Of a stretch of DNA of 64,000 nucleotides, positions 53,913 through 64,000 are shown in pieces; position 1 is the first letter of the stretch; each line of letters opens with the position of its first letter. Under the pieces are notes generated by a model. It was not told where the DNA came from. It made no database searches and saw only the letters and a list, made by a program, of their open reading frames with translations. The position numbers were made by a program, and so were the translations under genes. The DNA comes from Gorillibacterium sp. sgz500922 (lineage in GTDB: Bacteria > Bacillota > Bacilli > Paenibacillales > NBRC-103111): NCBI RefSeq assembly GCF_051594785.1, contig NZ_JBPPGI010000006.1, positions 90,827 to 154,826 of the forward strand, written 5' to 3'.

Positions 53913-54971
53913 TTATCTCCGCCTCATCCGGTTTGCCGCGGCGAGCAGCGCGTAGAGGCCCGCCGTGAACCGGAGCTTGGCGCACCAGTAGAAGACCCGC
54001 CAGACGGGCGAGCCCTCCGGTTGGAAGCGCGCCAGCGCCGAGCGGAACCGCTCCTCCCGCAGCAGCTCCTGGAGCCGGCTCCGCTTCTCCGCCAAGGAGA
54101 GGCTCTCCCCCGCCGACAGGATGTTGAGCCCGAGTCCCAGAACGCTCAGCGCGATGCGGTTCTCCAGCGCTTCGCGGTAAATGCCGTCCAGCCGATGCTC
54201 GGCCAGAAACTGCTCCATGAGTCCGAAAAGCTGCAAAAACTGCCGGGTAAGCCGCGGATTGAACCCCGAGGTCAGGGATTCCGCGTTCACTCGCCAGTAA
54301 TGGTAGTATGGCGTATGTAAGAAGACGAAGCTGCGGGCCGCCTGCACAACCTGCAGGTTGAACAACGTATCCTCGTTGCTGCCGATCCGCTTGAGATCGG
54401 TAAATTCCGCTTCGGTCTCGCGGATCAGCTCCGCCCGGTACAGCTTGTTCCAGACGGTTCCCCATGCGTCGAGCAGCTCCGGACTGCCCTTCTCGTCGCC
54501 CACCGGGCCGACCAGCCGGCGCAGGATCCGCTCGGCCACCGCTTCGTCCCGGTAGACGGTACGGTCGGCCAGCCCGAAGTCCTTCTCCTTCGCATGGTCG
54601 CCGAATTCGCGGACGTACGAGCACATGACGATGTCGGCGCGGTCGGCGACCGCCGTTCGGTACAGGGCTTCGAACATGCCGGGATCGGCCCAATCGTCGG
54701 GATCGACGAAGCCGATGAAGGCGCCGCCCGCTTCCGCCAGGCCCGCATTGCGGGCGGCGGAGACGCCGGCGTTCGGCTGATCGAGCACCTTGAGCCGGCC
54801 GTCGCGGGAAGCCGCCTCGCGGAGGAGGGCCAGGCTGCCGTCCCGGGAGCCGTCGTTGACGGCGATGATCTCGATGTCCTTCAGGGTTTGGCCAAGCAGG
54901 CTATCCAGGCAGCGGCCGAGGTAGCGCTCCATGTTGTACACCGGAACGATGACGCTCACCAGCGGACCCAT
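53913..54971 (-). CDS. GT2 glycosyltransferase (paralog B of the gene at 45786-46844)
   Basis: MGPLVSVIVPVYNMERYLGRCLDSLLGQTL; near-identical N-terminal signature to paralog A. Confidence 0.8.
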   Translation of the reverse strand: MGPLVSVIVPVYNMERYLGRCLDSLLGQTLKDIEIIAVNDGSRDGSLALLREAASRDGRLKVLDQPNAGVSAARNAGLAEAGGAFIGFVDPDDWADPGMFEALYRTAVADRADIVMCSYVREFGDHAKEKDFGLADRTVYRDEAVAERILRRLVGPVGDEKGSPELLDAWGTVWNKLYRAELIRETEAEFTDLKRIGSNEDTLFNLQVVQAARSFVFLHTPYYHYWRVNAESLTSGFNPRLTRQFLQLFGLMEQFLAEHRLDGIYREALENRIALSVLGLGLNILSAGESLSLAEKRSRLQELLREERFRSALARFQPEGSPVWRVFYWCAKLRFTAGLYALLAAANRMRRR

Positions 54972-54972
54972 G

Positions 54973-56100
54973 CTACACCCAGGCGTACCGGGCGTAGATT
55001 TGGCCCAGCCGCTCCTTGACTTCCTGCACCGAATACGCCGCTACCCGGGCCAGGCTCTCCTCGCCCATCCGGCGGCGCAGCGCTTCGTCCGCCGCCAAAT
55101 CCTCCATGCGGCGGGCGAAGCCGTCCGCATCGTTCGCGTCGACGAGGTAGCCGTTCACGCCGTCCGCTACCAGCTCGTGGTGGCCGCGGTTCTCCGCCGC
55201 GATCACCGGCAGGCCGCTCGCCATCGCCTCCATGATGTTGACCGGCAGACCCTCGCGGAAGCTCGAGGCCACCGCGATATCGCAGGCCGGCAGCAGCTCG
55301 GCGACATCGTCGCGGTAGCCGAGGAAGTCCACGCGGTCCGCGATGCCAAGCCGCTCGGCCAGCTCCCGGCAGGCGGGCAGCAGCGGCCCCGAGCCGGCCA
55401 GCGCGAGCCGGACCGTAGGAGCTCCGGGCTCCTGCCGGACCTTGGAGAGCGCGTGCAGCAGCAGCTGCTGGTTCTTGTTGCGGTTGAATTCGGCGGCATA
55501 GAAGAACAGCAGCCCTTCTTCCGCGAGGCCGAGCGCCCGCCGCCGCCCCGCCTTCTCATCCGAACCGAGCGGCCGGAAGCGGTCGAGCTGAACGCCGACG
55601 CCCGGCACATGGGCGATCTCCGCCGCCTGGAAGTGCCGCCGGAGAGCCAGCCGGTAATCCTCCGAATTGATCGTGATCAGGCAGTCGGTCACCCGTGCGA
55701 GCATTTTCTCCACCGGATAATAGAGCAGCCAGTTGACCAGCGGGGCACCCTTGCAGAAGTGAAAGCCGTGGGCCGTGTAGAGGACTTTCGTTCCCCGCTT
55801 GCGGGCCTTCCAGCCGGCCAGCCGGGCGAGCATGCCGCCCATCGGCGTATGGCAGTGAATGACATCGTAAGCGCCCCGTTCCATCACCGCCGACAGCTCG
55901 CGGTACGCCTTCACGTTCCCCGCCTTAAGCGGCGAGCGCTCGAAGGGAATGTCGAATTTCTGGTCGACGTGGGGCAACGAACGCCCTCCCTTGGCCGCAA
56001 CGTGAACCTCCCAGCCCTGCTCCTTGAACCATTCCAGGTAGGGAAGATGAAACTTCTCTACATGCGTATCGACCGTTGCCACAAACAATATGGCCGGCAC
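54973..56100 (-). CDS. GT4 glycosyltransferase (EpsD-like)
   Basis: The start is taken at the second GTG, which has a GAGGAGG RBS; the first GTG at 56109 abuts the RBS. Confidence 0.7.
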   Translation of the reverse strand: MPAILFVATVDTHVEKFHLPYLEWFKEQGWEVHVAAKGGRSLPHVDQKFDIPFERSPLKAGNVKAYRELSAVMERGAYDVIHCHTPMGGMLARLAGWKARKRGTKVLYTAHGFHFCKGAPLVNWLLYYPVEKMLARVTDCLITINSEDYRLALRRHFQAAEIAHVPGVGVQLDRFRPLGSDEKAGRRRALGLAEEGLLFFYAAEFNRNKNQQLLLHALSKVRQEPGAPTVRLALAGSGPLLPACRELAERLGIADRVDFLGYRDDVAELLPACDIAVASSFREGLPVNIMEAMASGLPVIAAENRGHHELVADGVNGYLVDANDADGFARRMEDLAADEALRRRMGEESLARVAAYSVQEVKERLGQIYARYAWV

Positions 56101-56121
56101 CGCCTTCACCTCCTCTTCGAA

Positions 56122-57957
56122 TCAGCGGGACGACACGACGGCAAGCTCCGCTTCGCCGGTATCCGGCGCGCGGCGGCTGGCGATCCGCAGCAGGGCTTCG
56201 CGCAGCTCCGTCTTTTCCATGCCCGCATAGCCCTTCAGCAGCTCCTGAATTTCCTTCATGCGCAGCTCCGCCGTCTTGCCGATGTAGATCTTCGGATAGA
56301 CCTGCTCCTCGTGGACCTCGTCCTTGCCGAGCAGCTCCTCGAACAGCTTCTCCCCGGGCCGGATGCCCGAGTATTCGATCCCGATGTCCTCGACGGAATT
56401 GCCGGAGAGGCGGATCAGGTTGACGGCGAGATCGGTGATCTTCACGGGATCGCCCATGTCGAGCACGAAGATTTCGCCGCCGCGGGCGAGCGCGCCCGCT
56501 TGAATGACGAGCCGCGAGGCTTCGGGAATCGTCATGAAATAGCGGATCATCTCCGGATGGGTGACCGTCACCGGGCCGCCCTTCTCGATCTGCTTCTTGA
56601 ACAGCGGGATGACGCTGCCCCGGCTGCCCAAGACATTGCCGAAGCGGACCGCGACGAATTTGGTGAAGCTGCGCTGGTCGAGGTCCTGGATGATCATCTC
56701 GGCGAGCCGCTTGGCCGCGCCCATGACGCTCGTCGGGTTGACCGCTTTGTCCGTGGAGATCATCACGAACGTCCGGACCCCGGAAGCGCTGGCGGCGTTC
56801 GCCGCGTTCAGGGTGCCGAGGACGTTGTTCTTGACCGCTTCCTCCGGGTTGCGTTCCATCAAGGGAACGTGCTTGTGCGCCGCCGCATGGTAAACGACGT
56901 CGGGGCGGTAGGTCTTCATCACCGCCATCATCTTGGCGGCGTCCTGAAGATCGGCGATTTCCGGCACGAATTTGATGCCGGAATCCTTGAACTGCTCCCT
57001 CAGCTCCATCTCGATGGAATAGATGCTGTTCTCTCCATGCCCGAGCAGCACCAGCAGCTGGGGCTTGAACCGGGACACCTGGCGGCAGATCTCCGAACCG
57101 ATGGAGCCGCCCGCACCGGTGACCAGGACGATTTTGCCGGTGACGGACTCGGAGATCTTATCCATGTCCATCTCCACTGGCTCGCGACCGAGCAGGTCCT
57201 CCACCTGCACGTCGCGGACCTGGTTCACCGAAACCTTGCCGGAGACAATGTCCTCGATCATCGGCAGAATCTGCGTCTTGGCCGCCGTCTTGGCGCATTC
57301 CTCGTAGATGCGCTGAATTTCCCGACGCCTCAGCGAGGGAATGGCGATGAGGATCGTATGGATGCGCATCTCCCGGGTGATCCGCTCGATGTCGCCGAGA
57401 CCGCCGACGACCGGAACGCCGAGGATGTCGAGGTTCCGCTTGTTCGGATTGTCGTCGACGAAGGCCACCGGCATCAGGTCCGTCTCCCCGCTGTTCAGGA
57501 GCTGGCGGACGATCATCGTGCCGCCCGATCCGGCGCCGACGATCAGCGTGCGCTTCTTCGTATTCGCCTTGCGGCCCGCCGTATGGAGCAGCCGCCAGGA
57601 AAGCCGCGTACCGCCGATGAGCAGCACATGCAGCATCCAGGTGATGGCGAGCATTCGGAAGTAAACGGTGCCCATCATCGCCGCCTGGACGACGACGGTG
57701 GCGGCGATCGAGAGGCTGACCGCCTTCAGGATGGCGGCGAGCTCGCTCACGCTGGCGTATTCCCAGGCTTTTTTGTACAGCTTATAGCGGAAGGCGAAGA
57801 AGTGGTGGCTGACGAGAAGCGTCAGCGAGGTCAGAATGAGCGGCGTCTCATTGACGGCCATGCCGGCGTGCGTCAGGTACCGGCTGAAGAAGATTGCCGT
57901 AAGGACCACAAAGGAATCCGTAAAAAACAAAAAAGACAGCCGTTGTCGATAGGTCAC
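56122..57957 (-). CDS. Membrane-bound UDP-sugar 4,6-dehydratase/epimerase (CapD/EpsC/PglF-like polysaccharide biosynthesis protein)
   Basis: GTG start after GGGAGGA; four N-terminal TM helices, then two Rossmann domains (GAGGSIGSE). Confidence 0.8.
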   Translation of the reverse strand: MTYRQRLSFLFFTDSFVVLTAIFFSRYLTHAGMAVNETPLILTSLTLLVSHHFFAFRYKLYKKAWEYASVSELAAILKAVSLSIAATVVVQAAMMGTVYFRMLAITWMLHVLLIGGTRLSWRLLHTAGRKANTKKRTLIVGAGSGGTMIVRQLLNSGETDLMPVAFVDDNPNKRNLDILGVPVVGGLGDIERITREMRIHTILIAIPSLRRREIQRIYEECAKTAAKTQILPMIEDIVSGKVSVNQVRDVQVEDLLGREPVEMDMDKISESVTGKIVLVTGAGGSIGSEICRQVSRFKPQLLVLLGHGENSIYSIEMELREQFKDSGIKFVPEIADLQDAAKMMAVMKTYRPDVVYHAAAHKHVPLMERNPEEAVKNNVLGTLNAANAASASGVRTFVMISTDKAVNPTSVMGAAKRLAEMIIQDLDQRSFTKFVAVRFGNVLGSRGSVIPLFKKQIEKGGPVTVTHPEMIRYFMTIPEASRLVIQAGALARGGEIFVLDMGDPVKITDLAVNLIRLSGNSVEDIGIEYSGIRPGEKLFEELLGKDEVHEEQVYPKIYIGKTAELRMKEIQELLKGYAGMEKTELREALLRIASRRAPDTGEAELAVVSSR

Positions 57958-58013
57958 GTTCTCATCCTCCCGTGCTCATGTCAATGTAGCCGCAAGCGTT
58001 CCGCTGCGGCTTA

Positions 58014-58544
58014 AACCCCTTCGAAGCCGATCCCAGGCGGCGCCCGGCGAAAGACATCAGGCTCGCGTAAACGCAGAGTGCGCCCGAAATGACGAAGATC
58101 GGACGCACTTGCGGTTCGCTTGCTTACCTGTGCGGTTTCCAGGGAGGAATCCGCACAAGTAAAGAAACGAAACCGCAGGCTTCGCCGCCGCTTGAGGAGC
58201 AGGCCGCGCGGGCGGGCCGCGCGCAAGGCGCGCGGAGCCGGCAATCGCGGCAGTCGCCTTAAGCGATGGGCGGCGAACATTCGGTTTCAATCGTAATCCG
58301 GGGCATCCAACCCCGCCTCACGCCACACCCTCGACGACCCGCGTCTAAGGTCCTGCGACCCACAGCATGACCGAGTGCCTCCATTGATATCGGCCAGGAG
58401 ACATCGCCGCAGCTTGGGTTCATCCGGCTAATGACCGGAAATCCGTCCACTGTTGTTCGCTATGTAAATCATTATCGTTCTTAATATAGAACAGCGAGGC
58501 AAAAGGAAAGCCCTCCGTATCGTCGGCGGGAGAGCCGGGCGAGG
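58014..58544 (-). ncRNA. About 530 nt of structured non-coding spacer between the BY-kinase and capD-like genes (candidate EAR-type anti-termination RNA or internal promoter)
   Basis: No credible ORF. Hairpins visible include TGTGCGGattcctccctggaaaCCGCACA. The position is equivalent to the epsB-epsC spacer that carries the EAR element in Bacillus. Confidence 0.35.
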
Positions 58545-59939: not shown

Positions 59940-59975
59940 TACTCATTATAGTTCTTAATAGCGAACATGTCAAAC
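59940..59975 (-). promoter_or_regulatory. EPS operon promoter: TTGACA, 17-nt spacer, TATAAT, with the inverted repeat GTTC-N8-GAAC filling the spacer
   Basis: A consensus sigma-A hexamer pair read on the minus strand, about 30 nt upstream of the first EPS gene. The inverted repeat resembles Bacillus SinR operators (GTTCTYT half-sites). Confidence 0.6.
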
Positions 59976-60006: not shown

Positions 60007-60345
60007 TCAGCCGCCGATTTCGTCCTCGTCCTCTTTTTCCTGCCGCTGCATCTGGTACAACCGGACGAAATCCTCCTTGCGCATTCCATCCTGAATGGCG
60101 GTGTAAATCAGCGTTTTCCATTCCTCATCCAGCGGATCGGCGCCCAGGTACTCTTCCCCGAGCAAAAATTCCAAATGGGTATCCAGCGATTCGGCCAGCT
60201 TGGAGAGCATGAGCAGGGACGGGTTGTTTTGCAGCTTGCGCTCGATATGGCTGAGGTAGGACTTGGAGATATCGGCCATCTCGGCGAGCTCGGTGATGGT
60301 CAGCCCCTTCTGCTCCCGCAGGTATTTAATTCGATCTCCGATCAT
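60007..60345 (-). CDS. XRE-family transcriptional regulator resembling SinR (HTH plus C-terminal multimerisation helix)
   Basis: MIGDRIKYLREQKGLTITELAEMADISKSYLSHIERKLQNNPS aligns by eye with the B. subtilis SinR N-terminus. RBS AAGGAGAAAG. The start lies 20 nt inside the 3' end of the ABC exporter gene. Confidence 0.7.
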   Translation of the reverse strand: MIGDRIKYLREQKGLTITELAEMADISKSYLSHIERKLQNNPSLLMLSKLAESLDTHLEFLLGEEYLGADPLDEEWKTLIYTAIQDGMRKEDFVRLYQMQRQEKEDEDEIGG

Positions 60346-62158
60346 AGCTTTCTCCTTCGTCGGATTGGATAAAATCGTTCCCTCTTTGCATCCCGAGCAG
60401 CCGGCGGAACATGCCCCGCCTCTCCCGGGCCAAGCTGGAATACTCGCCGCACTGCACGACCCGGCCCTGATCGAGGACCACCACTTGATCCGCGTCGCGG
60501 ATCGTGGTCAGCCGGTGGGCGATGACGATCAGCGTGATTCGGCCTCTCAGCCGGAACAGCGCATCCTGAATCTTGGCTTCGTTCTCGCCGTCGAGGGCGC
60601 TCGTCGCCTCGTCGAGCACGAGAACCGCAGGGTCCCGGAGGAGGGCTCTCGCGAGCACCAGCCGCTGGCGCTCGCCGCCGGACAGCCGCACCCCGCGGTC
60701 GCCCAGCACGGTGTCGAGCCCCATCGGCAGCCTGGCGACAAAGTCGGAGGCGGCGGCCAGCTCCAGAACCTCCCAGATCCGCTCGTCGCTTGCCTCCGGC
60801 TGAACGAGGAGCAGGTTGTCGCGGATGCTGGCGTTGAACAGGAACGGGTCCTGCGACACGTAGCTGACCGTCTGCCGGAAGCGGCGGATCGCAGCGCCCT
60901 CCAGCGGCGTCCCGTCCACCAGAATCCGCCCGTCCTCGGGCACGATGAGGCCCATGATGAGGTCGGCCAGCGTGCTCTTGCCGGCGCCCGAGCGTCCGAC
61001 GACCGCCGTCATCCGGTTGGCCGGAATCGTCAGGGTGATCCCCGCGAGGGCATAGGGGCCTTCGCCCCGCTCGTAGCGGTAATTCACGTCCTCGAGTTCG
61101 ATCGCCTCGGTAAGCCGCAGCGGTTCGCCTTCCAAGGCTCCGATCCGTTCCGCCGACAGCCGGCATTCCTCCTGCAGCCCGCGCAGGCTGCGGAACGCCG
61201 GTAGGCTTGCCGACAGCTGCTCCAGGTTCATCTGGATGTTCATGAACCGCGGCCACAGCCGGGAGAAGATCGCCACGACGATGATCAGCTGCCCTGCCGG
61301 CGTCTTCAGCCACGCCACGGAAGCGAAGAGGAAGAACGCGATAAGCCCGGTGGAAGCGAGCTTATAGACCATCTGAGAGTTGGAGCGCAGCTTAACGTAG
61401 CCGTCCTGCTCCTTCTGCAGCTTGCCGGACTCCTGCCGCATCCACTCGAGGCGCGAGCCTTCCAGCCGGTTGCTCTTAATGTCCTTAATGCCGTTGATCT
61501 GCTCGGTGATGCCGGCGAGGTAGCCCTGCGACATCTCCGTCGTCTGCTTGCCGAGCGCGAGCGCCTTGCCGAGCGAGCGCTTGGAGAGGAACGCGAGCGC
61601 GAGCCCGCAGACCACGACGAAGGCCGTGACCTGCCAGGACAGCCAGAGCGCAATCGCCACCTGAAGCGCCGTGAACAGCACGTTGGTTACAAGCGAGAGG
61701 AACAGGTTGATGCCCGCTCCGACCCGTGCCAGCTCGGCGGTCATCGTGTTGACCAGATCGGAGCGCCGCCGCTTCAGGAAGAAAGCCCAGTCGGCCATCA
61801 AGAGATCGCGGTAGACGGTGAAGCGCAGGTGATGCACGAACCCCTGATGGATGCGCGCGTTCTGAATCGTGAACCTTCGCTGAAGCAGGTTCTGGACCAA
61901 GGCCAGCATCACAAAAATTCCCAACACCGTCAGCAGGCCGGCCATCCCGGACAGGCCCTGAAGAAACGAGAACGCCTGGAACAGGGGATGGCTCGAAGCC
62001 GAATAGCTGATGATTCCGCTGATGCCCAGCATGGGAATTAATAGGATCAGACCGATGCCGTCCAGCAAGCTGATCGCGAGCATGCCGGCCATGTTGGCGT
62101 ACAGGACCGAACCGGAATAAGCCGCCAGTTGTTTGACATAATGCCGAATTTCCTTCAT
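60326..62158 (-). CDS. Lasso peptide ABC exporter (D protein; fused TMD-NBD, type I exporter)
   Basis: The start MKEIRHYVKQL follows GGGAGGAAG and overlaps the B2 stop (ATGA). Six TM helices, then Walker A GRSGAGKST, the signature LSGGERQR and Walker B. The 80 codons upstream in the track ORF are artefact. Confidence 0.8.
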   Translation of the reverse strand: MKEIRHYVKQLAAYSGSVLYANMAGMLAISLLDGIGLILLIPMLGISGIISYSASSHPLFQAFSFLQGLSGMAGLLTVLGIFVMLALVQNLLQRRFTIQNARIHQGFVHHLRFTVYRDLLMADWAFFLKRRRSDLVNTMTAELARVGAGINLFLSLVTNVLFTALQVAIALWLSWQVTAFVVVCGLALAFLSKRSLGKALALGKQTTEMSQGYLAGITEQINGIKDIKSNRLEGSRLEWMRQESGKLQKEQDGYVKLRSNSQMVYKLASTGLIAFFLFASVAWLKTPAGQLIIVVAIFSRLWPRFMNIQMNLEQLSASLPAFRSLRGLQEECRLSAERIGALEGEPLRLTEAIELEDVNYRYERGEGPYALAGITLTIPANRMTAVVGRSGAGKSTLADLIMGLIVPEDGRILVDGTPLEGAAIRRFRQTVSYVSQDPFLFNASIRDNLLLVQPEASDERIWEVLELAAASDFVARLPMGLDTVLGDRGVRLSGGERQRLVLARALLRDPAVLVLDEATSALDGENEAKIQDALFRLRGRITLIVIAHRLTTIRDADQVVVLDQGRVVQCGEYSSLARERRGMFRRLLGMQRGNDFIQSDEGESYDRRSN

Positions 62159-62691
62159 CGTGCTTCCTCCCGAAGCCTGCCGCGAACCGCCGGGTCCAGT
62201 CGGGACGGCTTGGCGAATTTGCCGACCGTGGTAAACCTTCTCATTTCCTCCGCGCCGGTGACGTACCGGTCGCCGCTGCGCAGCCAGGCATGCGCCGCCA
62301 GGCCGCCCGTTTCGTCCCGCCCGGTTCCCAGGTACAGCGTGCAGCCGATGCCCCGCCGCTCCAGCATCCTCAGGCCGGCCACGGCGCGGGTGAGGCACAT
62401 GCTGCTCCAGGGCGTATGCCGGCTGGCGGCCGCAATCGCGTCGGCGACCCGGCCGACGATGGCCCGCTCCGCCTCCGGCGCCCGCTCCGAGGGCGTCTCG
62501 CGCTCCCGCTCGCCGAGCGACGGAGCGAGGCGCGCGAACGGCCGGAGCAGCGCCAGCCGGGCCCGGCCGAGCTCGAAGAACGCCTCGGCGAGGAGCCGCC
62601 GGTTTCCGGCGGGCAGCGCGAGGAGCACCCGCGCCGGACGCAGCCGGCCTTTCAGCCTGCCGACGAGCCGTGTCCGCGGCGCCCCGCTCAT
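62155..62691 (-). CDS. Lasso peptide biosynthesis B2 protein (transglutaminase-like cysteine protease, leader peptidase)
   Basis: The start MSGAPRTRLVGRL overlaps the B1 stop (ATGA). N-terminal ...RRLLAEAFFELGRARLALLRPFARLA... The catalytic Cys (SMCLTRAVAG) ... His (AAHAWL) arrangement of PF13471. Confidence 0.75.
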   Translation of the reverse strand: MSGAPRTRLVGRLKGRLRPARVLLALPAGNRRLLAEAFFELGRARLALLRPFARLAPSLGERERETPSERAPEAERAIVGRVADAIAAASRHTPWSSMCLTRAVAGLRMLERRGIGCTLYLGTGRDETGGLAAHAWLRSGDRYVTGAEEMRRFTTVGKFAKPSRLDPAVRGRLREEAR

Positions 62692-62978
62692 ACGGCTTCG
62701 ATCAGGCCTTCGCGCAGGAGCAGCTCGATGAAGCCGCCGACCTGGCGCGAGCATTCCTCCGGCTCCACCTCGTACTCCTCGGTGAGGCGCTCAATCACAT
62801 CCTCGGTGCGGGCGGGCTCGGCGAAGCTGCGCCAGATTTCGCCGCCGATCTCGCCGAGGTTGTAGTAGTTGCCGTTCTGCACGCTCAGCATGACCGTCTC
62901 GCCGTCCATGTCGCTCACAATATTGCCCGGGGCCTGCCGCAGCAGGACGCGGGACAGGTCCTCCGTTCGGTTCGTCAT
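62688..62978 (-). CDS. Lasso peptide biosynthesis B1 protein (PqqD-like RiPP recognition element)
   Basis: MTNRTEDLSRVLLRQAPGNIVSDMDGETVMLSVQNGNYYNLGEIGGEIWRSF...EEYEVEPEECSRQVGGFIELLLREGLI is the PqqD/RRE pattern. RBS GAAAGGAGGAGAAGGG. The start overlaps the kinase stop. Confidence 0.75.
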   Translation of the reverse strand: MTNRTEDLSRVLLRQAPGNIVSDMDGETVMLSVQNGNYYNLGEIGGEIWRSFAEPARTEDVIERLTEEYEVEPEECSRQVGGFIELLLREGLIEAV

Positions 62979-63916
62979 CCCTTCTCCTCCTTTCGGGTTT
63001 CCGCCACGATGCGGTCGGCCAGCTCGTGCGCGGTGAAGCCTTCTTCCGGCCGAATCAGCCGGTAGAGAGGGACCGTCTCGGCCAGCCTTGCGGTGACTTG
63101 AAAATGCCAGTCCAGCCGGTTCATCCGGCGCAGGAACAGGTTGCGGTAGGTATGGTCGTACAGCAGGCGCATGCGGGCGAGGCCGCGCACCGGCTCCAGC
63201 CTCGGGGCCGCAACGGGGCCCTTCGTCAGCTCGAAGATTCCGCCGAGCGGCAGCTCGTGGGCCGCGAACTCGCACCCGACCGGCACGGCGTATTTCGTCT
63301 CCCGCTCGAACAGGGGCTTCAGCCCGGCATTCCCGCGCCCGAGGGCCTCGAGGCTCTCCTGCCACAGCTTCTGCTGCGGGTAGGACGGCGTCACCCGCGG
63401 CGGGTCCGCGCCATCGGTGTGCACCGGGATCACGTCGTCGCTCACCAACGGCAGGCCGCGGTCCATCAGCGCCCGGGCGAGCGTCGACTTGCCCATGCCC
63501 GATTCGCCCACGACGGCGTAAGCCTTACCGCCGATGGCGACGGCGCTTCCGTGTAGCGGCAGGATGCTCCGCTGCAACAAGATGGCGCCCATGCAGGTGC
63601 CGAGGATATATAAGCGAACCTTGTCCATATCGGCTGCGGGTACCGGGGAGACCCGGATGGTCCGGCCCTCCCGCACCTCGAACAAGGCGGTATCCGGAAT
63701 GTGGACGAGGAGGGTGTCCCCTTCCGCCTGGATCTTGCGGTCCGAGCGCTTCATGCGCTCCCACTCCTCCGCAAGCGGCTCCAGCCGGATCTCAATGTCC
63801 CCTCCTTCGCCGGCCCCCGGGATGACGGAGAGCTCCGGAAACGGCAGATCGCTTACGAGCCGAAAGCCGAAGGCCTCCGCCCTCCATTCGTTCTTCGTCA
63901 GTTGCAACGCCTTCAC
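62975..63916 (-). CDS. HPr kinase/phosphorylase-like protein (lasso precursor Ser-kinase type, as in paeninodin-class clusters)
   Basis: P-loop VVGESGMGKSTLARAL, as in HprK. GTG start; sits immediately upstream of B1 with an overlapping stop/start. Confidence 0.65.
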   Translation of the reverse strand: MKALQLTKNEWRAEAFGFRLVSDLPFPELSVIPGAGEGGDIEIRLEPLAEEWERMKRSDRKIQAEGDTLLVHIPDTALFEVREGRTIRVSPVPAADMDKVRLYILGTCMGAILLQRSILPLHGSAVAIGGKAYAVVGESGMGKSTLARALMDRGLPLVSDDVIPVHTDGADPPRVTPSYPQQKLWQESLEALGRGNAGLKPLFERETKYAVPVGCEFAAHELPLGGIFELTKGPVAAPRLEPVRGLARMRLLYDHTYRNLFLRRMNRLDWHFQVTARLAETVPLYRLIRPEEGFTAHELADRIVAETRKEEKG

Positions 63917-64000
63917 CTCAATCGGACAAGAATACGGATCAATGATAAGGAAAAGCCCTTATGCTTCATTTCGAAGGATAAGGGCTGCCAGCCGAAATGG

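What the first reader, a model, noticed from the sequence alone, without database searches (positions are those of the whole stretch)
62155..64000. Truncated lasso-peptide cluster with an HPr-kinase-like tailoring enzyme (kinase-B1-B2-D); precursor and cyclase lie beyond the window edge
Four consecutive minus-strand genes, each joined to the next by an overlapping ATGA stop/start. They are an HprK-like P-loop kinase, a PqqD-like B1, a transglutaminase-fold B2 with Cys/His catalytic residues, and a fused ABC exporter. This is the architecture of Firmicutes phospholasso clusters (paeninodin type), where the HprK homolog phosphorylates the C-terminal Ser of the precursor. The A (precursor) and C (Asn-synthetase-like cyclase) genes are not in the window. 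An unfinished minus-strand reading frame (one of the frames ending near 63959 or 63968) runs to nt 64000, so the cluster continues upstream. If the contig confirms it, this is a new member of a small family of phosphorylated lasso peptides, with an unusual downstream fusion to a biofilm-type regulator.
Basis: partly seen in the sequence, partly recalled or inferred. Interest (0 to 1): 0.8.

Follow-up and report, generated by a model that had tools for sequence, protein, structure and literature searches.

The report
Paeninodin-type phospho-lasso peptide gene cluster
This is the downstream two-thirds (kinase, leader-binding chaperone, leader protease, exporter) of an ordinary paeninodin-type phosphorylated lasso-peptide gene cluster from Gorillibacterium sp. 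sgz500922. The window edge cuts it off, and its cyclase and precursor genes almost certainly sit just beyond nt 64000.

Summary
Four minus-strand genes are joined by ATGA stop/start overlaps: an HprK-like kinase K (62975-63907, TTG start), B1 (62688-62978), B2 (62155-62691) and an ABC exporter D (60326-62158, outside the stated range). Curated lasso HMMs hit B1 and B2 above their cut-offs, and K carries the invariant His-Lys-Asp-Asp residues of lasso kinases.

The window is from Gorillibacterium sp. sgz500922. Its RefSeq protein numbers follow gene order (…867 to …874 for eight window genes). The genome's lasso cyclase homologue is …876, on a contig of the same length. That leaves exactly one protein (…875) where relatives encode the precursor.

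In 163 related loci the order is C-A-K-B1-B2-D, and every recognised precursor ends in Ser. Nt 63908-64000 is the A-K spacer with a conserved hairpin. It is not an unfinished gene.

The family is large (344 of 9173 complete Bacilli genomes in a 2026 paper), not small. The "regulator fusion" is a separate SinR-like gene overlapping D by 20 nt, followed by an eps operon, and that association has been published.

Verdict: a routine new member of a known family. The only mildly interesting feature is a sharp recombination breakpoint inside K, which shows the cyclase/precursor segment was exchanged.

The parts
63954..63986 (-). Stem-loop (AGCCCUUAU-C-CUUC-GAAAU-GAAG-C-AUAAGGGCU) followed by UUUCCUUAUCAUU. 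Terminator/attenuator-like hairpin in the spacer between the unseen precursor gene and K.
   Evidence: Centroid fold. The equivalent hairpin (GCCCUUGUAC…GUAU(A/G)AGGGC + UUUUC) lies ~36 nt after the precursor stop codon in L001, L004, L005 and L084 (alignment). The simple terminator scan missed it, and the whole-spacer fold is not better than shuffles (z -0.87).
63908..64000 (-). Intergenic spacer upstream of K (A-K spacer). No coding frame of the cluster ends here.
   Evidence: Three-frame translation. The spacer is 109-132 nt in Gorillibacterium relatives versus 93 nt available here, so the precursor stop is expected ~20-40 nt beyond nt 64000.
62975..63907 (-). K: HprK-like lasso-precursor kinase, 310 aa, TTG start. 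Catalytic H119, P-loop G134-T142 with K140, D157-D158.
   Evidence: PF07475 1e-7 and TIGR04355 9.5e-10. PDB HprK/P 1jb1 aligns H, GxSGxGKS and DD. H119, K140, D157 and D158 are invariant in 120/120 homologues. Identical to WP_438434874.1.
63795..63800 (.). Recombination breakpoint relative to the near-identical metagenomic relative L001. Identity is 97-100% downstream and 50-75% upstream.
   Evidence: Alignment and sliding identity. The cyclase of this genome is only 62% identical to that of L001, while B1, B2 and D are 98-100% identical.
62688..62978 (-). B1: PqqD-like RiPP recognition element (leader-peptide chaperone), 96 aa.
   Evidence: NF033536 4e-35, above cut-off. PDB 9x90_B 'lasso peptide biosynthesis PqqD family chaperone' 3.1e-23, TbiB1 3.6e-9. 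WP_438434873.1.
62155..62691 (-). B2: transglutaminase-fold leader peptidase, 178 aa. Cys99 and His134.
   Evidence: NF033537 1.4e-29, above cut-off. C99 and H134 are invariant in 134/134 homologous loci. WP_438434872.1 'lasso peptide biosynthesis B2 protein'.
60326..62158 (-). D: fused permease/ATPase ABC exporter, 610 aa.
   Evidence: PF00664 plus PF00005. WP_438434871.1. It follows B2 with an ATGA overlap, so there is no PsmN-type gene between them.
60007..60345 (-). SinR/SlrR-like XRE-family HTH regulator, 112 aa. A separate gene overlapping the D stop by 20 nt, with its own GGAG ribosome-binding site.
   Evidence: PF01381 4.7e-17; NF046032 SlrR 2.2e-22 (below cut-off); weak SinI tail. Sequence. 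The D-HTH-yveK-capB-epsC order is conserved in L001, L004, L005 and L084.
59945..59973 (-). Perfect sigma-A promoter (TTGACA-17-TATAAT) of the downstream eps-like operon, with an inverted repeat GTTCGCTATTAAGAAC in the spacer. This marks the 3' boundary of the lasso/HTH unit.
   Evidence: Promoter scan, 12/12 match. The promoter is invariant in five Gorillibacterium loci, and the spacer repeat differs at only one base (C/T), even though the flanking genes are only 72-99% identical.

Best explanation
The region is the K-B1-B2-D part of a complete C-A-K-B1-B2-D paeninodin-type lasso-peptide operon of Gorillibacterium sp. sgz500922. It is truncated only by the window edge.

Proposed mechanism (steps inferred from the characterised paeninodin and ThcoK systems unless marked 'shown'):
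1. A ~43-aa precursor is encoded just beyond nt 64000. It is expected to have a WxxP leader, Thr at -2, an AGPG…D9 core and a C-terminal Ser.
2. K uses its P-loop and His-Lys-Asp-Asp centre (shown: residues present and invariant) to (poly)phosphorylate the C-terminal Ser hydroxyl of the linear precursor.
3. B1 binds the leader and presents it to the Cys/His protease B2 (shown: family membership, C99/H134). B2 removes the leader.
4. The Asn-synthetase-like cyclase C (WP_438434876.1, outside the window) activates Asp9 and closes the 9-residue isopeptide ring around the tail.
5. D exports the product.

There is no PsmN-type nucleotidyltransferase, so a phosphorylated but non-glycosylated product is expected. 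A conserved hairpin after the precursor gene probably attenuates read-through, so that precursor mRNA exceeds enzyme mRNA. A SinR-like regulator gene is coupled to the 3' end of D and precedes the promoter of an eps-like exopolysaccharide operon.
For: - Gene order and ATGA overlaps.
- Lasso-specific HMMs above cut-off for B1 and B2.
- HprK-like kinase with H119/K140/D157/D158 invariant in 120 homologues. This matches the His-Lys-Asp-Asp motif reported for lasso kinases (PMC9266682).
- C-A-K-B1-B2-D is the published firmicute/paeninodin order (PMC5067487). It is also the dominant order in the 163 fetched loci.
- About 100 recognisable precursors lie between C and K. All have a W..P leader and all end in Ser. 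The L001 precursor hits NF033524 'paeninodin family lasso peptide' at 58.9 bits against a cut-off of 27.
- The source genome was identified by exact protein matches. WP_438434867 to …874 map to eight consecutive window genes. The cyclase homologue P0137 is …876, on a contig of the same length. Its best family is NF033535, lasso cyclase, at 1e-106.
- The near-identical relative L001 shows the whole cluster.
Against: - The DNA beyond nt 64000 of this genome could not be retrieved, so A and C adjacency is inferred from accession order, a matching contig length and relatives. It was not read.
- The precursor sequence of this genome is unknown. It is not in the 90% cluster of the other Gorillibacterium precursors.
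- The segment upstream of ~63795 is a divergent allele.
- K falls just below the Pfam gathering score, and C falls below the NCBIfam cut-off (358 vs 525 bits).
- Nothing here shows expression, phosphorylation or lasso topology.
Confidence: 0.9

Rival explanations
1. The cluster is a genuine remnant in the genome. The precursor and/or cyclase are lost, displaced or pseudogenised, so no lasso peptide is made.
For: The region upstream of ~63795 has been replaced by a divergent allele. The precursor of this genome was not found in the protein collection. The DNA beyond 64000 was not seen.
Against: An intact 648-aa cyclase homologue is annotated in the same genome on a contig of the same length, two accession numbers after K. 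Accession order equals gene order for eight genes. All four visible genes are intact with conserved catalytic residues. The post-precursor hairpin is retained. The failed precursor search returned only one candidate in total, which indicates a limitation of the search rather than absence of the gene.
Confidence: 0.05
2. It is a pseudomycoidin-type cluster whose product is phosphorylated and then glycosylated or nucleotidylated.
For: 83 of 116 related loci carry an extra gene of 1 kb or more between B2 and D. In B. pseudomycoides (L046) that gene is an NTP_transf_5 protein, i.e. PsmN-like.
Against: Here B2 and D overlap by ATGA, so there is no room for such a gene. The same holds in L001, L004 and L084, and L005 has only a 39-nt gap. 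Glycosyltransferases further downstream belong to the eps operon, which has its own promoter and an EAR element.
Confidence: 0.03
3. It is a linear polyphosphorylated peptide (LPP) cluster, or K is a housekeeping HPr kinase ('aldolase' in RefSeq), rather than a lasso system.
For: LPP clusters share an HprK-like kinase, an RRE and an MsbA-like exporter, and they also sit in capsule loci (PMC13381572). RefSeq names K 'aldolase'.
Against: LPP clusters are defined by a SipW-like signal peptidase and an NTP transferase, and most lack B2 and C (PMC13381572). Here B2 is present, C is in the genome, and neither defining LPP gene is present. B1 scores above cut-off on the lasso-specific RRE model. K scores 32 bits against a cut-off of 240 for true HPr kinase TIGR00679, and it is translationally coupled to B1.
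Confidence: 0.02

Closest known systems
Paeninodin cluster padeCAKB1B2D of Paenibacillus dendritiformis C454 (Zhu et al. 2016, via PMC5067487 and PMC9266682)
   Same: It has the same gene set and order (K-B1-B2-D seen; C-A inferred), a split B protein, an HprK-like kinase with the His-Lys-Asp-Asp motif, and no extra tailoring gene between B2 and D. Relatives' precursors share the AGPG…D9 core start and the C-terminal Ser.
   Different: The genus is different, and the kinase is only ~45-50% identical to Paenibacillus/Bacillus homologues. The Gorillibacterium-type core (AGPGKA[HF]PDS[FY]IEDEDE[VT]AHLNHS in relatives) differs from paeninodin. The actual core of this strain is unknown. PadeK itself was not aligned here.
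Gorillibacterium timonense and Gorillibacterium sp. CAU 1737 clusters (L004, L005) and the metagenomic contigs L001 and L084
   Same: They show identical synteny: C-A-K-B1-B2-D-HTH-yveK-capB-EAR-epsC. The precursors are annotated by NCBI as 'paeninodin family lasso peptide'. L001 is 97.9% identical to the window over 11.2 kb.
   Different: Upstream of nt ~63795 the window carries a different allele. The first ~37 residues of K differ, and C is only 60-63% identical to any of these relatives.
Pseudomycoidin cluster (psm) of Bacillus pseudomycoides
   Same: It has an HprK-like kinase acting on a C-terminal Ser, plus B1, B2 and D, and the same overall order.
   Different: The psm-type clusters carry the nucleotidyltransferase PsmN between B2 and D (L046). 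It is absent here.
LPP (linear polyphosphorylated peptide) clusters, PMC13381572
   Same: They have an HprK-like kinase, a discrete RRE and an MsbA-like exporter, and they are embedded in capsule/EPS loci.
   Different: LPP clusters use a SipW-like peptidase and an NTP transferase and lack the cyclase. This locus has B2 and a cyclase in the genome.

Membership tests
Paeninodin-type (kinase-associated) lasso peptide BGC | Discrete PqqD-like RRE (B1) | tested here: met
   NF033536 119.8 bits (cut-off 80), PF05402 63.6 bits. PDB lasso RREs 9x90_B 3e-23 and TbiB1 3.6e-9.
Paeninodin-type (kinase-associated) lasso peptide BGC | Transglutaminase-fold leader peptidase B2 with catalytic Cys and His | tested here: met
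   NF033537 103 bits (cut-off 33). C99 and H134 are invariant in 134 homologues. The third (Asp) triad residue was not identified: D141 is not conserved.
Paeninodin-type (kinase-associated) lasso peptide BGC | HprK-like kinase with conserved His-Lys-Asp-Asp (PMC9266682) | tested here: met
   H119, K140, D157 and D158 are invariant in 120/120 homologues and align to HprK/P 1jb1. PF07475 scores 32.1 bits, marginally below the gathering score of 33.3.
Paeninodin-type (kinase-associated) lasso peptide BGC | Gene order C-A-K-B1-B2-D with an ABC exporter | tested here: inconclusive
   K-B1-B2-D is read directly. C-A upstream is inferred from consecutive RefSeq numbers (…874 K, …875 unknown, …876 C), a matching contig length of 361,438 bp and relatives. 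The DNA beyond nt 64000 was not available.
Paeninodin-type (kinase-associated) lasso peptide BGC | Asn-synthetase-like macrolactam cyclase C | tested here: inconclusive
   P0137 from the same genome has NF033535 'lasso peptide isopeptide bond-forming cyclase' as its best family, at 1e-106. Its 358 bits are below the 525 cut-off. It is not in the window.
Paeninodin-type (kinase-associated) lasso peptide BGC | Precursor with WxxP leader, Thr at -2, ring-forming Asp/Glu at 7-9 and C-terminal Ser | not testable with these tools
   The precursor of this genome lies outside the window and could not be fetched. In relatives, every recognised precursor meets all of these features, and NF033524 is met by the L001 peptide.
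Paeninodin-type (kinase-associated) lasso peptide BGC | Product is a threaded lasso carrying phosphate on the C-terminal Ser | not testable with these tools
   This needs expression, MS/MS and NMR or a protease/thermal unthreading assay.
Pseudomycoidin-type (kinase + PsmN) | NTP_transf_5 nucleotidyltransferase gene between B2 and D | tested here: not met
   B2 and D overlap by ATGA. Such a gene is present in L046 and in 83 of 116 related loci.
LPP clusters (PMC13381572) | SipW-like signal peptidase I plus NTP transferase; no B2 or cyclase | tested here: not met
   No such genes occur between K and the eps promoter. B2 is present and a cyclase is in the genome.
Bona fide HPr kinase/phosphorylase | Full-length match to TIGR00679 / N-terminal HprK domain | tested here: not met
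   TIGR00679 scores 32 bits against a cut-off of 240. Only the ~50-residue P-loop core aligns.

The most novel reading that the evidence does not exclude
Within one Gorillibacterium species-level lineage, the cyclase-precursor segment (C, A and the first ~37 codons of K) has been exchanged by homologous recombination. The rest of K and all of B1, B2 and D stayed 98-100% identical. This strain would then make a core peptide different from its near-clonal relatives using the same leader-recognition, protease, kinase and export machinery. The whole operon would be read through into a SinR-like regulator that controls the adjacent eps operon, tying phospho-lasso production to biofilm-matrix control.
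Probability: 0.25. Interest if true: 0.45.

Novelty: new member of a known kind. Interest (0 to 1): 0.2.

Why it matters
It adds one more uncharacterised paeninodin-family cluster, and RefSeq already labels its B1 and B2 as lasso genes.

Two things give it modest value. First, the sharp recombination junction inside the kinase gene is a clean natural example of how RiPP core and cyclase segments are swapped against a constant processing and export backbone. Second, the tight, genus-conserved arrangement D / SinR-like gene / conserved sigma-A promoter with an inverted repeat / eps operon with an EAR element offers a concrete locus for testing whether paeninodins are linked to biofilm formation. 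PMC13381572 leaves that question open.

Tried and rejected
**Fetching the DNA beyond nt 64000**
- Exact-product look-ups failed for K (313-aa and 310-aa forms, and P0001), B2 and the HTH protein.
- B1 returned only near relatives L001-L003.
- An exact 33-nt pattern from the window end found nothing in the metagenome contigs.
- The GTDB representative scan does not contain this genome; the best kinase hit is 68% identical, from G. timonense.
- The metagenome protein scan gave at best 72% (L084).

**Finding this strain's precursor**
- It is not in the 90% cluster of the other Gorillibacterium precursors.
- A homology search with the 43-aa peptide returned only one candidate in total, apparently because the search's shared-word requirement is too strict for so short a query.

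**Readings considered and rejected**
- The open frames at the window edge as the precursor 3' end: they have the wrong tails and lie in the hairpin spacer.
- A D-regulator fusion: the two ORFs are in different frames, and the regulator has its own ribosome-binding site.
- A second A or C copy elsewhere in the window: only chance hits.
- A canonical B. subtilis SinR operator GTTCTYT near the eps promoter: none there, and the motif is not enriched in the window.
- No PDB sequence relative was found for B2.


Full report
**Observation.**
The minus strand of 60326-63916 carries four consecutive ORFs. Their junctions are plus-strand 'tcat' (= ATGA) at 62975-62978, 62688-62691 and 62155-62158. The reported translational coupling is therefore real.

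Pfam and NCBIfam give the following assignments.
- ORF 62688-62978 is a PqqD-like protein. It scores above cut-off on the lasso-specific model NF033536 (119.8 bits, cut-off 80).
- ORF 62155-62691 matches Transglut_core3 and NF033537, 'lasso peptide biosynthesis B2 protein' (103 bits, cut-off 33).
- ORF 60326-62158 is a fused ABC permease/ATPase.
- ORF 62975-63916 has an HPr-kinase C-terminal-domain core (1e-7; 32.1 bits against a gathering score of 33.3).

The stated range 62155-64000 omits D.

The kinase most likely begins at TTG 63907, which has GAGGTG 6 nt upstream. The 310-aa product is identical to RefSeq WP_438434874.1 and aligns end to end with relatives.

**Catalytic residues.**
In an alignment of 120 kinase homologues, H119, the P-loop G134-x-S-G-x-G-K140-S-T and D157-D158 are invariant. 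They align with the same residues of L. casei HprK/P, PDB 1jb1. This matches the His-Lys-Asp-Asp motif shown by mutagenesis to be essential in lasso-tailoring kinases (review PMC9266682, citing Zhu et al. 2016).

In B2, Cys99 and His134 are invariant in 134 homologous loci. I could not assign the third triad residue.

B1 resembles solved lasso RREs: 9x90_B at 3e-23 and TbiB1 at 3.6e-9.

**Source genome and what lies beyond the edge.**
Exact-sequence look-ups identify the window as Gorillibacterium sp. sgz500922 (TaxID 3446694), on a contig of 361,438 bp. Eight consecutive window genes carry consecutive RefSeq numbers:

| RefSeq number | Gene |
|---|---|
| WP_438434867 | epsC-like |
| WP_438434868 | CapB |
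| WP_438434869 | YveK |
| WP_438434870 | HTH |
| WP_438434871 | D |
| WP_438434872 | B2 |
| WP_438434873 | B1 |
| WP_438434874 | K |

A search with a relative's cyclase found a 648-aa 'asparagine synthase-related protein' of the same organism, on a contig of the same length, numbered WP_438434876. Its best NCBIfam family is the lasso isopeptide cyclase NF033535, at 1e-106. Its 358 bits are below the 525-bit cut-off. Exactly one number (…875) is left between K and C, and that is where relatives encode the precursor. This is inference, because the DNA itself could not be fetched.

**Relatives.**
A Logan metagenome contig (L001) is 97.9% identical to the window over 11.2 kb. It reads C (652 aa) - A (43 aa, MKKEWKQPELEILGVQMTM|AGPGKAHPDSFIEDEDEVAHLNHS) - K - B1 - B2 - D - HTH - eps genes. 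Its precursor meets NF033524, 'paeninodin family lasso peptide'. NCBI gives that name to the G. timonense and CAU 1737 orthologues.

Across the 163 loci fetched from GTDB species representatives and JGI metagenomes, C-K-B1-B2-D is by far the dominant order. About 100 precursors were recognised between C and K. All have a W..P leader and Thr at -2, most have an AGPG…D9 core, and all end in Ser.

This is the published firmicute 'C A K B1 B2 D' organisation of paeninodin (PMC5067487), and the W..P leader is a known hallmark of the family (PMC13381572).

**The last 93 nt.**
The three minus-strand frames reaching nt 64000 close after 10, 13 and 28 codons. None ends in Ser.

Instead the stretch contains a 13-bp interrupted hairpin (63954-63986) followed by a U-rich tail. 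The hairpin base is conserved ~36 nt after the precursor stop codon in L001, L004, L005 and L084. By that spacing, the precursor stop codon should lie roughly 20-40 nt beyond the window.

I read the hairpin as a partial terminator that sets the precursor-to-enzyme transcript ratio. That is inference. The simple terminator scan did not call it, and the whole-spacer fold is not better than shuffles (z -0.87).

**Subtype.**
In 83 of 116 relatives an extra gene of 1 kb or more lies between B2 and D. In B. pseudomycoides that gene is an NTP_transf_5 protein, i.e. PsmN of pseudomycoidin. Here B2 and D overlap, so this is the minimal paeninodin subtype. A (poly)phosphorylated, non-glycosylated lasso peptide is expected.

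LPP clusters (PMC13381572) are excluded by the presence of B2 and C and by the absence of a SipW-like peptidase and an NTP transferase.

**Downstream 'regulator fusion'.**
The 112-aa XRE/SinR/SlrR-like gene (60007-60345) is in a different frame from D. It overlaps D by 20 nt and has its own GGAG ribosome-binding site, so it is not a fusion.

Several features follow it:
- a perfect TTGACA-17-TATAAT promoter, with an inverted repeat (GTTCGCTATTAAGAAC) in the spacer;
- yveK/epsA-like, capB/epsB-like and epsC-like genes, then glycosyltransferases;
- an epsC/EAR RNA (RF01735, 105 bits) at 58300-58409.

The promoter is invariant in five Gorillibacterium loci, and the spacer repeat differs at only one base. 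The D-HTH-eps synteny is conserved across those loci.

Co-localisation of paeninodin clusters with capsule loci, and a possible biofilm link, are already noted in PMC13381572.

**Recombination.**
Identity to L001 drops from 97-100% to 50-75% at window ~63795-63800, about 37 codons into K. This genome's C is only 60-63% identical to any sampled Gorillibacterium C. The C-A-5'K segment has therefore been exchanged for a diverged allele. The precursor of this strain probably differs from those of its relatives, since it is not in their 90% cluster.

**Verdict.**
This is a routine member of a large, well-studied family:
- more than 1600 kinase homologues at E<=1e-30;
- 344 of 9173 complete Bacilli genomes (PMC13381572);
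- antiSMASH 'paeninodin' hits reported in many genome announcements.

It is also partly annotated as such in RefSeq. Interest is low. The recombination junction and the conserved SinR-like/eps linkage are the only points worth a follow-up.

Noticed in passing
window 58300-58409 (-): An epsC/EAR RNA element (RF01735, 105.5 bits, full length) lies in the ~590-nt gap between the CapB-like tyrosine kinase gene and the epsC-like polysaccharide biosynthesis gene. The downstream operon is therefore organised like the B. subtilis eps operon, with its processive-antitermination RNA.
   Followed up: partly
window 59945-59973 (-), with 5' UTR to 59908: A perfect sigma-A promoter (TTGACA-17-TATAAT) lies between the SinR-like gene and yveK. 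Its spacer holds an inverted repeat, GTTCGCTATTAAGAAC. The promoter and the 5' UTR are almost invariant in five Gorillibacterium loci whose flanking genes are 72-99% identical, and the repeat differs at only one base. The repeat is a candidate operator for the adjacent SinR-like protein. No canonical GTTCTYT site is present there.
   Followed up: partly
window ~63795-63800 (inside K): A sharp homologous-recombination junction relative to the metagenomic contig L001. Identity is 97-100% downstream and 50-75% upstream. The cyclase of this genome is only ~62% identical to that of L001.
   Followed up: yes
window 54931-58014 (+): A 1027-aa plus-strand ORF runs antisense to the epsC-like and glycosyltransferase genes. 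It is a spurious long ORF typical of high-GC DNA, not a gene.
   Followed up: partly
related loci, e.g. L006-L009, L016, L021, L023 (C ends more than 600 nt before K in 23 loci): In about a fifth of related loci, roughly 2 kb of extra DNA separates the cyclase from the kinase. In L147 a second precursor copy lies upstream of the first. These may be additional precursor or tailoring genes, or the co-localised LPP-type genes described in PMC13381572.
   Followed up: no
RefSeq annotation of window 62975-63907: The lasso kinase is named 'aldolase' in RefSeq. Homologues are variously named 'phosphoenolpyruvate carboxykinase (ATP)' or 'HPr kinase/phosphorylase'. This looks like a systematic misannotation of the family.
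   Followed up: partly
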